Source of the DNA: Atractiella rhizophila
Lineage: Eukaryota
DNA length: 64,000 bases
Assembly (NCBI GenBank): GCA_021432655.1
Contig: MU271275.1
Span: forward strand, 1-64,000
Direction: 5' to 3'
Shown: piece by piece, positions 15,270-22,674 of the stretch
How the letters are laid out: every line of letters begins with the position of its first letter
Position numbering within the stretch: position 1 is the stretch's first letter
Notes under the pieces: model-generated
What the model was told of the DNA's origin: nothing
Seen by the model: only the letters and a program-made list of their open reading frames with translations
Databases searched by the model: none
Position numbers and translations under genes: made by a program

Positions 15270-16856
15270 TCAAGCGAAGAGGACAGTGCTGAGAGCAGCA
15301 AAAATCAGAGCCAGCCAACCTGCACCGGGGCCACCAGCAGCACTGTTGCTGCCGCTTCCGCTTCCACTTGAACTACCACTGCCACTGCCACTTCCGCTTC
15401 CAGATGTGCTGCTGTTGCCAGTCCCGTCAGTTCCAGGGAGGCCAGAACCATCGAGAGATCCAGAGTTCTGTTGGACGGCTCGAGCGAAACCAATTTGGTG
15501 ATTGGTGGTCGAGTTGTAGGAGAAGACGGTATACCAGTTCTTCATGAATGTATCTCCAACGACGCCGAGTGGTGTGTTATCACTATCGACAGCCTATGGA
15601 ACTGCACGTTAGTCTTGCCTGTGGCTAAAAGAGGACGAGCGACTGACATCCGTCGCCGCGAGAATGATACCGCATTGGCCGCTTTGAGTGGTTCCGACAA
15701 ACAAATCGAGAGGCGCCACGTCATAAATGTTTCCCCCAATGTTGAACCCAAAGTCAAGAGTGGCCAGGTCTCCACAACTCATGACAAGGACGTAATTTCC
15801 GCCTCCTTGATTCTGGATACTAGCTCCAATACCTTCAGCATAAGCTTGAATGATGTCCGCTGGGAGGTTGACGATTGAGCTTCCCGAGTCGACCAACATC
15901 CTCATGTTCGTCCCGCTGATAGTCTTGCCTTTCGCAGTCAACCCTTGGCATTCCACAGCCCAGAACACATCAGATGTGACGTCTGCAAACTTAACGTCTC
16001 CTGTGTAATGCGACGAATCCGTGCATCCGACGCAGATCTCACCACCCGTAGAGTCCGTGGCAGAACCAGAGTCGAAGTTCTTAAAAGTGATATCGCGCTC
16101 CAAGAAGAGGGAAAAGACGGGCGAGTTGAGAGTGCCTCCATCACCAGCAATGAGATGCTCCATGAACGTCGTCTGCTTGTTCGAGGCCAAGGTAGAGAAA
16201 CCAAGACCGATCAATCCATCCTCCACTTCGCTATCCAGCTGTTCTGAAGTGATGTTTGCGACCGAGAACCCTTGGCTGGGAATCCTAAAACCAGCTATGC
16301 CGAGGGTGTCTTGTGCCACGAAGCCAGTAGTTGTCGTTCCGTCACCGTACGTGATCTCCCACGGAGTCGTGCTGCCGACAAAGGTGGAGGAGGCTGAAGT
16401 GGCGAATTTAGGATGCTTCGTTGTATTAGCATCAGGACCGTAGACCCATAAGTCGGCTGATCCAGCTGTACAGAAGGAGGATGAGCTGCGCGCTGGCGGT
16501 CATTAAAGAAAGTAACGAACTATCAAACTGGAGCGTAAAGTTTTGGCCAGGGGTTCCAAGTTCGATTTGACCAAGGTAGATTCCTGCATCCTTTGTATCA
16601 GGCTCCAAACAAACCGGGGAAGGAAAGACAAACCGTCGAGCGGTGCACCATTTGAGAACTCTTCCTCTCCGTCTGCCCGCTTTGAGAACGCCAGTCTGCG
16701 ACGTTCGTTGGACTCCGATGGCTTGATGTGCTTTGTGAGGGAGAGGACGTTGAGACCCCTCTTCTGCAACTGTCCATGCCGCGAAGATGACGGAGGGAGG
16801 GAGGTGGCTGAAGCGCCAATGACGCTCAGGCTGAGCAAAAGAGACACGGTGGCCAT
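15270..16856 (-). CDS. Secreted, probably GPI-anchored pepsin-like (A1) aspartic protease
   Basis: Signal peptide; KR sites in the propeptide; catalytic FDTGSADLW (split by an intron) and LVDSGSS; DGLIGLG; LGDTFMKNWYTVF; Ser/Gly-rich linker and hydrophobic C-terminal tail. Confidence 0.92.
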
Positions 16857-17444
16857 CTAACTGGAGTACTGAGACTGAGACAACAAAGGAAGTCTTGGTA
16901 GGATCCTGAAGAGAGGATTCGAGTGTTCTTTGTCTGTGACAAAGGGACAAGGCAGCTGAAAAGTTAAAGGGGAATATTCGAACGGAGGGACTGAAAAGGA
17001 TTCAACAGAAAGGCGATGGGGACGTCAGTTTATGTATGACCTTTCCCGCATATAAATAGTGGCCGGAAAAGGCTGGGCGTCGTTATTTTTGTGACCGCTG
17101 CGAATATACTCGCAACCGGAACACAACTGGACGACCAGACACACAACCTTGCCCAAAATACGCTGGCGGGCATGAGAGCACATTGTATCAGTATATTGTA
17201 AGGACTCTGATGCATTGCAAGAGTACACAGAACTGCTTTGGTAGTGACAACGTTTGATTGCGATGGGAAGTTACCGTTACAAAAGGGATGATAGAGTCCG
17301 ACATAATGCATATTGGAAGACCGTCCGCAGCCTGAACTGATAGATTACAGTTGAGCACAGCGAGAACGCTGGAGGGCTTTGCAGGACCTCCAGCCTGGGA
17401 AAACGAAAACGTCACGAGCCGAGGAAGAGAATATGGAAGTGGAA

Positions 17445-18390
17445 TCAATAGTAGCAGACACTGTGGAGCAGTTGATGCGGATGTTTGGCTGAGTGTTGTT
17501 CGAGAATCTGATCAATTTCTTGATCGAGGTCTATTGCACTCTCCAACTGAATTTGACGCATGAGAGAGCTGGAAGGCCTGAGGTAAAGGGGACATACTGC
17601 AGAACATAGCTCTAGCATGCTTTTTCCGGCTATCAATGCCTCCTCATGGCTATCCTTGATCTCCATATTGATAACATGGACTGGTTTATTTTGCTCTCCC
17701 CCCCTCAACAGCAAGTCTATAACAGCGTCAGCGCCATGTTGCCAGGCCTCCAAAAGAAACAAAGCGTACCATCGCAGACAGCGTCGAAGCACCTCTCCTC
17801 ACAGGTAATGACCACGTCCACGATCTTCTGGCTATCCTGCCACCTCTCGGGAAACTGTTTGACATTCCGGTTCCGATCCAACATCTGTAAAAGTCCATTC
17901 GAGGCGTAGAGCCGCTCATCCTTGGACCGCAGATCATTCCACATGAAATCGTACGTCGTCCCAAAAGAGTATATGTTCGGTTTATCAATAGTGGCACCTG
18001 GCAGGCGTACAGCGGATCCCGTTCCACAAGATGTGACCAGAAAGTTGTTTTTCCTATAACAAACATGTCACTTCAGCTTCGTGGCACACAGAATTAAAGA
18101 ACGAACATAAGAACATTGTGACCCTCCATCGATCGATTATTGTTGCTCGCACACACGATGCAGAAAGACTTCTGGGACTTCTTTCCCGGTGGAGCTTCTG
18201 GTGGCGGAGGAGGAGGCGGAAGTTTCGAGGTAGAAGCAATAGCGAGTGATGAAGCGGCTAGTCCTGGCAGGGCAGAGGGAGAAGAGGTAGCACTCATCCC
18301 AGGTATGACAGAAGAAGGTCCACCAAAAGAAGGTGCCTGAGCAGATTGACGCGCTTGGCGAGCACGGAGACGTGGGTCGTTGGAAGCCAT
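17445..18390 (-). CDS. SSU72: RNA polymerase II CTD phosphatase Ssu72
   Basis: Catalytic [51 protein letters not shown]. Has an extra low-complexity N-terminus and a 5'UTR intron at 18392-18583. Confidence 0.95.
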
Positions 18391-18451
18391 TCTGCAACCG
18401 GTTGAAATTCGTTCAGTCTTAAACCTCTACAGATAAACAGAGTAAAGGCAG

Positions 18452-18559
18452 AGGAGAGTCAGAAGTATCTGCGGTCGTTTGCTCATCATTTTTCTGAACC
18501 TGACGGCTCTGAAATTTGACAGCTCCAATAAAAGTGACTTATTCATCATTCCCGCTCCT
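18452..18559 (-). ncRNA. Intronic box C/D snoRNA (SSU72 5'UTR intron)
   Basis: On the minus strand: C box ATGATGA (18549-18543), D' CAGA (18496-18493), C' ATGATGA (18489-18483), D box CTGA (18462-18459), and terminal complementarity AGGAG/CTCCT. It lies within a GTGAGA...GCAG intron about three times longer than neighbouring introns. Confidence 0.8.
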
Positions 18560-19353
18560 AGAAACCAAAGAATAAACTCTCACCTGAAAGATGTTGTGGA
18601 AACGGAAATTTGTTGTTGGTGGCTTGTGGATTGTGAGAAGAAAAATTAGCAGGATGCCTGTTTTGGAACCGAAGCCGTCTTTATAAACCTTGTTCGATAT
18701 GAACACACTGCAGTCTCTTTCACGATCTCGCTGGCTTTCCAGAATCTTGAACTCCTATTAGGCTCTACGATAGTGTGATTGTTATTTAGTTATAGTATAA
18801 TCAATATCCGCCTGGAACACTTCGGCTTGTTTAAACATGGATGAGCACCCAAATTTCGACTAAAGATTAAGGGAGGAAGAAGTACTTGGAGAAAACTGAG
18901 AACTCAATCATCAAACACCAGTTCAGCCAAATCCCGAAAACTACGAACAAATAAATCTCGAGAATTACGGATTAGTTATTGAAACACGACTCGATTAATC
19001 TATTAACAGGAAAAGGAATATGGGTGGCTAAGTCAAGGATCGTAGTAAGATTGGAAATGAATTAGAAGTTTATCCGGTCATTTTGCTAAATTCCTGCGAA
19101 GCTTTAACTGTTATTGTTGTGGTCGGAGCCAACATCCACGAATTAGCAGAGCAAGAGAGGGAACTGAGATGGCACGCGATAACTGGTATCGTTAACAGGA
19201 CGGGATTACAAAAGATCGTGACACGTTACGTATACTGGAAATTGAGCGACGGAAGGTTTAGGCAAGGAGGAAACGAAGGCGACTTCGAAAGTTCGACTGC
19301 TATGCATCAGTGCCTCGGTCGCTTTCGGAGGGAAGCACTCACAGGTCATTCAA

Positions 19354-20865
19354 TCACGAAGCAGAGCTCTGTGAATAGGTTTGCTGCAGAGCAGGCGGTA
19401 CCCCTTTGATAGTTCCACTCTTCTGTTCCAAGGTATCGAGCATCTGTTCCATTCCCTCCGCTCCAGCCTCTCCCTGTCCCCCAATACCTCCATATCCATC
19501 CCTCTCCCACCCTCCAGCAGCTGCAATTCTTTCTTCGTTCAGAATATCTGCATAGCTCATGAAGCTCAACCTCTTCTTGTCTCCTGTGCTCGTGACTGTT
19601 GAACCGCGCTGGTGAACGCGACGAGCAAACATCTCATCGTTCAAGGCAATGTTGGACGTCGGAGAAGGAGGCAAACCAGTAGTGGTAAGAGGAGCACCAA
19701 CGAGATTCGGAGAGAGTGAACGTGGGCGGGGCGACTTGTCCTTGCCCTCATTTGACAATCCGACGGAATCTGTCGTAATCGCCAGTTCTTCAATCTTGTC
19801 TTGATGGGCAAAGAAGAGAGGAGGACTTCCGCTGGCAGGAAGCGGAGGAGTCTGAAGGCTACTTCCCGAGGCGGGACTCGTGGGATAAGTCGTGGAAAGA
19901 GGTGGAGGTGATGAGGAGCTTGGGCTTCCCGCGAAAGTAGGAGGAGAATAAGCACCAGTTGGACTCCCAGCACCAGAAGCACTTCCACTACCCACTTGCG
20001 CCATCGGATTGGACGAGTAGTAATAACTCTGCCTACTGGGACTGCTCCAGCCAGTCGGACTGACATGTCCACTTCCAGCTCCGAAGATCAAACTGCTCCC
20101 CATGTCACCAAGCGGGCCGTCCCTCCCAGTGCCTTGCTCCCTCACCAAATCTACAAGTTCATCAATATCCTTCGGAGCCTCCTCACTCGTCAACAGTTCC
20201 GCCGCCTCCAGCAAGACCGGAGGGATCGCCACATCCACCGCCTCGTGTGCCGAGAGAAGATGGTCCGAAGGAAATTCGACATCTCGCTCAAAAATAGATG
20301 AAGCATCGTCAGCTGACAACGGAGGCCTTGTCGGGTAGAAGTCCGTTCGATGAATGAGCGGAACGGTCGAACCACCAGACAAAGTACTTTGCATCGCCTC
20401 GGAGCGATGGACAGGACTGAGGTTGAGACCAGTGAGGTCGAGATGGAGGGGCAACTCTTTGTGTCCGGCTAGCGTCGGGGACGGAGGACTCGTCGTTGGC
20501 GACACGGAGCCTGCTCGATGTGGATGCGGAGGTGAAGCGGATCGGGAAGGATGATGAGGTGTAACGCTGCCGTGTCCATGGGCAGGTGTGGATGGAACAG
20601 GAGCAGGAGGAGAGAGTACGGAACTAACTGCATTGGGAGATAGAATGGGTGCAGCCCTAGCGGCTGTGATCACCTTGGAGTTGCTATGGGAGTGTTGGTG
20701 ACCGGACGGAGGAGGAGGCGAAGAGGATCCTTGCTCCGATCGTGCTCGAGACGCCGGAGCAGAGGCGGCCATAGGGTCGAGGGCTTGAGCAGGTAGAGCA
20801 GGGGAAGTCGAAGCGGACTTCGCCTTGGATTCAAGTTTGGATTTCGAACCTAACAAACGTTTCAC
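19354..20865 (-). CDS. Ser/Pro-rich disordered fungal protein with conserved SIFERDVE and KRLSFMSYADIL islands
   Basis: 503-aa uninterrupted ORF. Short motif islands recall an uncharacterised fungal family (yeast YMR206W/YNR014W-like, from memory and unverified). True start and end exons are uncertain. Confidence 0.75.
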   Translation of the reverse strand: MKRLLGSKSKLESKAKSASTSPALPAQALDPMAASAPASRARSEQGSSSPPPPSGHQHSHSNSKVITAARAAPILSPNAVSSVLSPPAPVPSTPAHGHGSVTPHHPSRSASPPHPHRAGSVSPTTSPPSPTLAGHKELPLHLDLTGLNLSPVHRSEAMQSTLSGGSTVPLIHRTDFYPTRPPLSADDASSIFERDVEFPSDHLLSAHEAVDVAIPPVLLEAAELLTSEEAPKDIDELVDLVREQGTGRDGPLGDMGSSLIFGAGSGHVSPTGWSSPSRQSYYYSSNPMAQVGSGSASGAGSPTGAYSPPTFAGSPSSSSPPPLSTTYPTSPASGSSLQTPPLPASGSPPLFFAHQDKIEELAITTDSVGLSNEGKDKSPRPRSLSPNLVGAPLTTTGLPPSPTSNIALNDEMFARRVHQRGSTVTSTGDKKRLSFMSYADILNEERIAAAGGWERDGYGGIGGQGEAGAEGMEQMLDTLEQKSGTIKGVPPALQQTYSQSSAS

Positions 20866-21625
20866 ACGTCAGAACAACTGATCACGGTTTGACATGTTCG
20901 TTCACGATAAATGATCCCCGCAGCGGGAAAGAAAGCTTCGTTTCTCCTCGTCCTCATTGTTGAATGAAAATGGCATGGAGTGGCAATATTGGCGCACGCC
21001 GTGATATGCGCAAAAGCGCACCTCGTGGGTCAGACCTTGTTGTTGCGAACCCCGCTTATGGTGTTTGCACAACATCGAACGTTTCAGGCTTTCCCATCTA
21101 ATGTCATCCATGCCCATGTCTACAACTCCTTCACATCCATCGAGGAGAAAACCATGGTAATCCCTTCACCAACCCAGCATCTGGTCCAAACAACATGAAA
21201 CTCACCCTTCTCTTGAGACTTGGGTTTCCGCAAAAGAGGCATGATTATCGTTGCTTGTTGATATCCTAGCTAAAAGTTCAAGCTTTCGAGATGGATTTGT
21301 GGCTGGGAGAAGGGATTCTTGAACAACTATTTGGCAGTCGTCTCGTCGTTTTGCTGTTTCCGTCCTCGCCGCGGCTGCGGAAGTGCTATGACGCCAGGAT
21401 GGCACGGTAACAAAGCCGACTAAACCCGAATAACCCCAAGCAATGTGGCACTGTGATGAGCGGAAGCTGAGTGAAGTGTTGGTTGGGGAGCATGAGATGG
21501 AACTATTCAGAAAGCAGCACTATCGTCTGAGTGTTACCAGCTAATTGCATGCTCCGTACTTCCGAAATAGTCGATTCTACACAAGTTTGTGATTTGCCTT
21601 TATTTGCACAACAATTCCGTTCCAT

Positions 21626-22544
21626 TTACAAGGCTCCGAACATCTGTGACAGTTCTCAGCACGCAACTCGCAATAAACAAATGCATGAAGCTCACCTTTG
21701 CGAATTCGTTGTAGTCGATCTTTCCATCACCGTTGGTATCAGCTTCCTTGAGCATCTGTTTCGGTTCCAGATCTTCAGGTAACGAATCTCAAATCAGGAA
21801 GAAAATGAGACCCACTTCGTCCAGCTGTTCGCTTGACAGCTGATCTCCTAGCTTCTTCATAACGCTTTCAATCTCAGCTTTGGTAATGTATCCGTTTCCT
21901 ATGAGACATCTGCAGGTCAGCTAAAGTCACGGAGCGGAACAAAGCAGGACACACCGTCAGCGTCAAAGACCTTGAAAGTCTCCCTCAGCTCCTTCTCTCT
22001 GTCGCCAGCGGCGATCGAGTCCCTAGAGATCATGGCCAAGAATTCGTCAAAGTCGATTGTCCCGTCTTTATTCTGGTCGATCTCATTGATCATCTCTTTG
22101 AGTTGGGAATCGGTTGCTCCTTGGTTCAGTGCTTTCATTACGTCCCCGAGCTCAGCAGTACTGATCGTGCCATCGCCGTCTATAGGTCGAGCAAATTACT
22201 TTTCGAAAAGACATTCCAGGGAGTATGGGGAAGAACGGACTTACTCTTGTCCTGAGAAAAAGGCAAGGCATGGAATCAGAACTGGCGGTCTCTTCAGTTT
22301 GTAAGGAGGAAAAACGAACGAAAAGCGCAAAGGTATCCTTGTATTCTGTTACCATCAACGACATGAGCAATAATCCCTGTGAGCAAACGCTAGGTAAGGA
22401 AACCTGCCTTGAAGCTGCTCTACAGATCCAGAAATGATGAACACTTCGCATGGCGGACGAAAGAAATCCTACCGGGTGACTACGATTCCCTCCGTTAGGT
22501 TAGAGCCAAAATGTATGCAAATAACTCACAAGTTTGCTGGCCAT
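21626..22544 (-). CDS. Calmodulin-like protein (divergent calmodulin paralog, four EF-hands)
   Basis: Spliced: [32 protein letters not shown]...[12 protein letters not shown]...[12 protein letters not shown]...[20 protein letters not shown]. Contains two 7-nt exons and one GC-AG intron. Confidence 0.9.
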
Positions 22545-22674
22545 TGCTGTATCAGAAGATTCACGTCAATCCTTCAATAGATTCCCTCCGTTAGGTTAGA
22601 GCCAAAATGTATGCAAATAACTCACAAGTTTGCTGGCCATTGCTGTATCAGAAGATTCACGTCAATCCTTCAAT
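22484..22674. repeat. Perfect 95-bp tandem duplication (period 96) covering the calmodulin-like start exon
   Basis: 22484-22578 is identical to 22580-22674. Confidence 0.97.

What the first reader, a model, noticed from the sequence alone, without database searches (positions are those of the whole stretch)
18452..18559. Unannotated box C/D snoRNA in the SSU72 5'UTR intron with atypical guide elements
Seen: a complete C, D', C', D set with a terminal stem in a 192-nt non-coding intron (18392-18583) that ends 1 nt before the ATG. TATTGGAGCTG (18530-18520) is an 11-nt complement of conserved 18S rRNA CAGCUCCAAUA, but it is not directly beside a canonical D/D' box. The D-box guide CAGATACT is complementary to AGUAUCUG in the U2 snRNA branch-recognition region (8 nt, 9 with G-U), so the D+5 rule would point to the U2 A38 equivalent. 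The D' guide has no target I recognise. The host is notable because Ssu72 acts in snoRNA transcription termination in yeast. All targets are inference.
Basis: partly seen in the sequence, partly recalled or inferred. Interest (0 to 1): 0.7.

Follow-up and report, generated by a model that had tools for sequence, protein, structure and literature searches.

The report
Intronic 18S methylation guide in SSU72
A spliced leader intron of a fungal SSU72 gene carries a real small guide RNA that most likely methylates one cytidine of the small ribosomal RNA, matching a guide already described in Neurospora, so it is mostly ordinary; the proposed extra target in the U2 splicing RNA is weak.

Summary
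The snoRNA is real, but its main guide is not atypical. The 192-nt intron is spliced in 2 of 4 public runs laid. In two relatives the RNA body has 0 substitutions, against 11-12 in the 63-nt 3' flank. An internal hairpin puts D' at CAAA (18518-18515), one base after a 12-bp duplex with the genome's own 18S. D'+5 then gives C587, and 0 of 1000 shuffles pair as well. Neurospora Nc CD30 (PMC2780460) has the same 12-bp D' guide, in the same register, for the equivalent 18S-Cm584. So this is a basidiomycete counterpart of a published family that no Rfam model picked up. The U2 complement exists (9 bp, A38 equivalent) but is short. 205 of 1000 shuffles match some target as well (38 for snRNAs only), an LSU site scores similarly, and Nc CD30 lacks the element. 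No distant homologue was found. Earlier scan notes held no match by sequence or by name. Verdict: new member of a known kind, with about 20% chance of an added U2 guide.

The parts
18392..18583 (-). Spliceosomal intron in the SSU72 5' leader (GT..AG, 192 nt) that hosts the snoRNA
   Evidence: Sequence; contigs of runs X3 and X4 skip exactly 192 nt here (table 5)
18452..18559 (-). Box C/D snoRNA with its terminal stem; mature RNA about 95-100 nt (ends inferred, not mapped)
   Evidence: Boxes and stem; 0 substitutions over 18455-18555 in X4 and over 18455-18538 in X9
18543..18549 (-). Box C (AUGAUGA)
   Evidence: Sequence
18520..18531 (-). D' antisense element, 12 bp with 18S rRNA 584-595; predicted target C587 (equivalent of Neurospora Cm584)
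   Evidence: -17.2 kcal/mol, 0 of 1000 shuffles as good; same duplex as Nc CD30
18515..18518 (-). Degenerate box D' (CAAA), in the register of the Nc CD30 D' box
   Evidence: Directly before the internal hairpin; same register as the published D'
18491..18514 (-). Internal hairpin that brings D' and C' together
   Evidence: Predicted fold -8.4 kcal/mol; no covariation available
18483..18489 (-). Box C' (AUGAUGA)
   Evidence: Sequence
18464..18473 (-). D-side element of uncertain role: 9 bp with U2 (own A37, human A38 equivalent) or 10 bp with two G-U pairs to an LSU site
   Evidence: near chance level
18459..18462 (-). Box D (CUGA), 67 nt from the 3' splice site
17448..18390 (-). SSU72 coding region (host gene, 262 aa, interrupted by further introns)
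   Evidence: Pfam Ssu72 E 9.7e-43 for exon 2; tblastn of P0001; intron 18053-18105 skipped in all 4 runs

Best explanation
An ordinary intron-encoded box C/D methylation guide, the basidiomycete counterpart of Neurospora Nc CD30. It is transcribed with SSU72 and released by splicing of the leader intron (splicing shown; trimming to a stable RNA inferred). It assembles with Snu13, Nop56, Nop58 and Nop1 at the C/D and C'/D' motifs (inferred from the family). Its D' element pairs over 12 bp with 18S 584-595, the 3' strand of the hairpin holding the 530-loop equivalent (helix 18; name recalled), and directs 2'-O-methylation of C587 by the D'+5 rule (predicted, not measured). The D-side spacer is probably not a methylation guide, or is an accessory element.
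For: Perfect C, C' and D boxes, 0 of 20000 shuffles. Intron spliced in X3 and X4; body unchanged against 11 of 63 and 12 of 63 substitutions in the 3' flank, Fisher p about 2e-5 each. Best D' duplex -17.2 kcal/mol, 0 of 1000 shuffles. I placed D' at CAAA and the target at C587 from hairpin geometry (note) before reading Nc CD30. Nc CD30 has a 12/0 D' guide for 18S-Cm584 with cDNA and northern support, and the same duplex with the same end G-U. Offsets agree: Nc Um575 to Cm584 is 9 nt, and own U578 to C587 is 9 nt. The two RNAs share 16 identical bases through the first base of D' (read by eye). Of 4 genome-wide matches to C box plus guide, only this one has the full layout. D' boxes vary often in fungi, 15-45% per position (PMC5824354).
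Against: No small-RNA reads and no methylation map; contigs cannot show RNA ends. D' CAAA matches CUGA at only 2 of 4 positions, and an overlapping CUGU would give A591 instead (-9.6 kcal/mol). Cm584 is a prediction in Neurospora too: the passages read report primer extension only for CD11 and CD29. Likeness to Nc CD30 is confined to the guide region, so independent origin is possible. X4 and X9 share 9 of their substitutions and count as roughly one comparison. The 24 intron bases 5' of the snoRNA are also unchanged in X4. No distant homologue was recovered.
Confidence: 0.82

Rival explanations
1. [quoted passage not shown]
For: 8 Watson-Crick pairs starting at position 2 from a perfect D box, plus one G-U; 8 of 1000 shuffles give such a run against snRNAs and 12 of 1000 reach this energy on U2. 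The 20-nt spacer is unchanged in X4 and X9 (p about 0.02 at the flank's rate). Mixed rRNA/U2 guides exist in fungi: Nc CD29. Lineage-specific second targets are described for 14 of 68 fungal C/D families.
Against: 9 bp is below the 10-21 bp range stated in PMC2780460. 205 of 1000 shuffles match some canonical target as well, 38 of 1000 an snRNA. Nc CD30 has no such element. The human U2 list read has Cm40 but no Am38, and two searches found no report of U2 Am38. The whole RNA is unchanged in the relatives, so conservation does not single out this element.
Confidence: 0.18
2. The D element guides methylation of an LSU adenosine about 325 nt before the 3' end of the LSU match.
For: 10 bp, -11.9 kcal/mol, the best score for this spacer; the site is present in all 3 LSU-containing stretches fetched.
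Against: Two G-U pairs, one at position 2; 56 of 300 shuffles do as well.
Confidence: 0.08
3. The D' box is the overlapping CUGU (18522-18519) and the target is 18S A591, or the element only chaperones folding of this 18S hairpin without methylating.
For: CUGU is closer to CUGA than CAAA is. The target strand is paired inside an 18S hairpin in the predicted fold, so binding must precede or open it.
Against: The duplex would shrink to 9 bp, -9.6 kcal/mol. The hairpin geometry and the Nc CD30 register both put D' four bases later.
Confidence: 0.08
4. Not a functional RNA: chance boxes, or a conserved 40-codon upstream ORF that starts at the ATG in box C.
For: An open frame runs from 18549 to a stop near 18427. 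The 108-nt fold is no more stable than shuffles, z -1.09.
Against: Box layout 0 of 20000 shuffles and rRNA duplex 0 of 1000; match to a northern-verified family. The 3' part of the frame takes insertions and deletions in relatives (table 4). Weak folding is common in fungal C/D RNAs.
Confidence: 0.03

Closest known systems
Neurospora crassa Nc CD30 (GenBank EU780954; Liu et al. 2009, PMC2780460; Table 1, passages and supplements 1 and 4 read)
   Same: D' guide of 12 bp to the same 18S segment with the same end G-U, one unpaired U before D', and the equivalent target (Nc Cm584 = own C587). 16 identical bases through the first base of D'. A stem between D' and a UGAUGA C' box. The table lists no homologue in S. 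pombe, S. cerevisiae, Arabidopsis or human.
   Different: D' is CAAA here and CUGU there. Longer (about 95-100 nt against 84). In a 5' leader intron of SSU72, whereas Nc CD30 is listed as intergenic. The D-side spacer is unrelated and carries a 9-bp U2 complement that Nc CD30 lacks. Basidiomycete rather than ascomycete.
snR77 / Nc CD24 / HBII-135 (18S Um575 in Neurospora numbering)
   Same: D' guide acting on the same 18S hairpin
   Different: Target 9 nt upstream; different antisense element; a separate family
Nc CD29 (U2-Am31 plus 5.8S-Am42) and Drosophila scaRNA:MeU2-C41 (PMC5733568, section 8 read)
   Different: Other positions (A30/31 and C40/41 equivalents); CD29's U2 match is listed as 16 bp and was checked by primer extension, whereas this one is 9 bp and untested

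Membership tests
Box C/D snoRNA | Terminal box C (RUGAUGA) and box D (CUGA) with a closing stem | tested here: met
Box C/D snoRNA | Internal C'/D' pair | tested here: met
   C' perfect; D' degenerate (CAAA), placed by the hairpin and by the Nc CD30 register
Box C/D snoRNA | Antisense element of 10 nt or more directly before D or D' | tested here: met
   12 bp to own 18S, 0 of 1000 shuffles
Box C/D snoRNA | Sequence constraint relative to the flanking intron | tested here: met
   0 of 101 against 11 of 63 (X4); 0 of 84 against 12 of 63 (X9); close relatives only, not independent
Box C/D snoRNA | Stable small RNA bound by Nop1/Nop56/Nop58/Snu13 | not testable with these tools
   Only assembled contigs were available
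Nc CD30 family (18S-Cm584 guide) | D' antisense element to the same 18S segment, same register and target | tested here: met
Nc CD30 family (18S-Cm584 guide) | Homology outside the guide, or a continuous chain of orthologues | tested here: inconclusive
   By eye only 4 bases beyond the 12-nt guide are shared; no intermediates found; family alignments of PMC5824354 not readable
Nc CD30 family (18S-Cm584 guide) | Methylation at the predicted cytidine | not testable with these tools
   One paper search found only the Neurospora prediction
Any Rfam 15 family | Covariance-model score above the gathering cut-off | tested here: not met
   0 hits in the window; two noise hits at E 1.7 and 5.6
U2 2'-O-methylation guide (scaRNA-like) | Duplex of about 10 bp or more with U2 at the D box | tested here: not met
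   9 bp with one G-U; 38 of 1000 shuffles as good on snRNAs
U2 2'-O-methylation guide (scaRNA-like) | Guide conserved in distant orthologues and target methylated | tested here: inconclusive
   Unchanged in two close relatives, absent from Nc CD30; methylation not testable

The most novel reading that the evidence does not exclude
A CD30-type rRNA guide that has gained a second, short D guide in this basidiomycete lineage and methylates U2 at the A38 equivalent, inside the branch-point recognition region. I found no report of a 2'-O-methyl or a guide for that position. One intronic RNA in the leader of a Pol II CTD phosphatase gene would then mark both the 18S hairpin around C587 and the spliceosome's branch-pairing RNA.
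Probability: 0.18. Interest if true: 0.55.

Novelty: new member of a known kind. Interest (0 to 1): 0.2.

Why it matters
Modest. It places the 18S Cm584/587 guide, published for Neurospora with no yeast, plant or human homologue, in a Pucciniomycotina fungus. That suggests the modification is older than the ascomycete-basidiomycete split, or arose twice; this may already be in the supplement of the 2018 fungal survey, which I could not read. It also shows a gap in Rfam. If the U2 element proved active, it would add a new modified position in the U2 branch-point recognition region, where guides for even the conserved Cm40 were reported only from Drosophila.

Tried and rejected
Rfam at gathering and E-value thresholds: nothing real. 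Pattern scans for distant homologues: metagenome contigs gave 48 hits; 0 of 48 had an SSU72 tblastn match, and 4 of 48 had a CTGA at D-box distance but read as coding or repeat sequence. The prokaryotic control gave 32 hits, 1 of 32 with such a CTGA. Two looser patterns saturated at 120 chance rows. Tighter patterns gave 2 prokaryotic and 10 viral hits, none with a C' box. These collections are probably poor in fungal genomic DNA, so absence means little. A search of the own genome for a separate U2 C40-type guide gave 9 matches, none convincing apart from this locus. Extra pairing of the D spacer beside the 18S target: only 5 bp (-9.3) or broken duplexes; not claimed. A regulatory link to Ssu72-dependent snoRNA termination: one paper search (58 papers held the terms; 15 titles and abstract starts seen) showed no snoRNA hosted in SSU72; left as speculation. 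No report of U2 Am38 in two searches or in the passages of PMC7960923, PMC5733568 and PMC8583080 read. No rRNA modification map for Neurospora was found.

Full report
Setting. The feature lies on the - strand, in the leader of SSU72. Exon 2 scores E 9.7e-43 against Pfam Ssu72 and is 100% identical to a protein record labelled Atractiella rhizophila; the named next hits are other basidiomycetes at 77% or less. That 262-aa protein starts at the ATG at 18390. The genome holds one copy of the intron sequence.

The intron is real. 18583-18392 is 192 nt, GT..AG, and ends 1 nt before the ATG. I laid 4 of 24 listed public runs on the region. Contigs of X3 and X4 skip exactly these 192 bases (table 5). 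X4 and X9 also have unspliced contigs across it; X5 does not cover it. The RNA labels of these runs are guesses, and contigs cannot show RNA ends or levels.

The snoRNA is real. Box C is at 18549-18543, C' at 18489-18483 and D at 18462-18459, with a short terminal stem. This layout occurs once in the window and in 0 of 20000 shuffles of the intron (spacing ranges set around this locus). In X4 the 63 bases 3' of the body carry 11 substitutions and several indels, and the 101-base body none. In X9 the counts are 12 of 63 and 0 of 84 (Fisher p 1.5e-5 and 2e-5). The listed rows account for all differences counted on those records. One change (18454) turns a stem G-C into G-U, and a 5-base insertion in X4 recreates the 5' arm of the stem. 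Caveats: X4 and X9 share 9 substitutions, so they are about one comparison, and the 24 intron bases 5' of the RNA are also unchanged in X4. Rfam has no matching family.

The D' guide. I took targets from the genome itself: 18S, LSU, 5.8S, U1, U2, U4, U5 and U6. The best duplex by far is 18531-18520 with 18S 584-595: 12 bp, one G-U, -17.2 kcal/mol. Bases 18514-18491 fold into a hairpin (-8.4) whose base is flanked by C' on one side and by CAAA (18518-18515) on the other. With CAAA as D', the guide ends one unpaired base before the box and D'+5 pairs with C587; 0 of 1000 spacer shuffles do as well against 5962 nt of targets. An overlapping CUGU would give A591 with only 9 bp.

The known counterpart. 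Table 1 of Liu et al. 2009 (PMC2780460; first two of six parts, passages, and supplements 1 and 4 read) lists Nc CD30: 84 nt, cDNA and northern, D' guide, 12/0 match, 18S-Cm584, intergenic, no homologue in either yeast, Arabidopsis or human. Its printed duplex has the same guide, the same end G-U and one U before D'. Nc Um575 to Cm584 is 9 nt, as is own U578 to C587. By eye the two RNAs share 16 bases through the first base of D' and little else. Of 4 genome-wide matches to C box plus guide, only this locus has the rest of the layout. I therefore read it as the CD30 counterpart. Common descent is the simplest account but is not shown. Canzler et al. 2018 (PMC5824354; parts 2-5 of 9 and passages read) searched 147 fungi with the Neurospora families and name an Atractiellales species, but the main text does not mention CD30 and the supplement was not readable. 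The locus may already be annotated there.

The D-side element. It pairs with U2 34-42 (8 Watson-Crick pairs plus one G-U, -10.7) and points to own A37, which is human A38 by recalled numbering. Of 1000 shuffles, 205 reach that energy on some target, 38 on an snRNA and 12 on U2; 69 and 8 give a run of 8 Watson-Crick pairs on any target or on an snRNA. An LSU site scores -11.9 with two G-U pairs, matched by 56 of 300 shuffles. In favour: correct register at a perfect D box, no change in two relatives, and precedent in Nc CD29 and in lineage-specific second targets (PMC5824354). Against: shorter than the 10-21 bp range, absent from Nc CD30, and no Am38 in the human U2 list (PMC7960923, passages) or in two searches. 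The conserved methyl in this region is Cm40 (PMC5733568, section 8 and passages), two bases off the D+5 position. Complementarity alone often fails to predict activity (PMC8522698, passages). I put the U2 guide at about 18%.

Mechanism. Shown: host gene, spliced intron, boxes, constraint and complementarity. Inferred from the family: release by splicing and trimming, assembly with the four core proteins, and methylation of 18S C587. The target strand is paired within an 18S hairpin in the predicted fold, so the guide must act early in pre-rRNA folding (inference). Leader or intronic hosting is the rule for Neurospora C/D genes, 45 of 55. Ssu72's role in snoRNA termination is recalled, and I found nothing linking it to this RNA.

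Limits. No distant homologues were obtained, so no covariation test or covariance model was possible. No methylation data were found. Other papers opened gave nothing on this RNA: PMC8216456, PMC9941101, PMC11971394, PMC8476143, PMC2377427 and PMC8583080 (passages only), and PMC6770171 (abstract only). Earlier scan notes held no look-alike by sequence and none naming CD30 or this site; several report other intronic guides that match Neurospora families, which I did not check.

Verdict. Real, correctly spotted, partly misread. A new member of a known kind; interest 0.2, or 0.55 if the U2 guide proved active.

Noticed in passing
window 22484-22674: Exact two-copy tandem repeat of a 96-nt unit at the 5' end of a calmodulin-like gene (gene label by eye from ORFs). 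A recent duplication or an assembly artefact.
   Followed up: partly
window 18763-18900: A much deeper contig in run X3 has a poly(T) loose end at 18763: a polyadenylated - strand transcript, probably of the 504-codon ORF at 19354-20868, ends about 90-140 nt before the region where SSU72 leader contigs begin.
   Followed up: no
window 18549-18427 (-): The only ATGs of the intron are in boxes C and C', and the first opens a 40-codon frame. An intron-retaining transcript would gain an upstream ORF; the spliced leader has no ATG. Unspliced contigs exist in X4 and X9.
   Followed up: partly
window 18463-18458 (-): The D box with its neighbours (TCTGAC) is the only CTRAY branch-site match in the intron, about 70 nt from the 3' splice site; a weaker CTGAAC-type site lies about 25 nt from it.
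   Followed up: no
L006, L007, L008, L014-L016 (G000 contigs C25, C12, C187, C109): rDNA is scattered over several contigs, partly as fragments; the C109 LSU match is 4072 nt and holds an internal duplication.
   Followed up: no
L002-L005, L017-L020, L024-L027: Multiple snRNA gene copies: 4 U2, 4 full U6, 5 U1-like (below the Rfam cut-off), 2 U4 and 1 U5.
   Followed up: no
window 15270-17000 (-): Pepsin-like aspartic protease gene with a Ser/Gly-rich, GPI-anchor-like C-terminus directly downstream of SSU72 (label by eye from ORFs).
   Followed up: no
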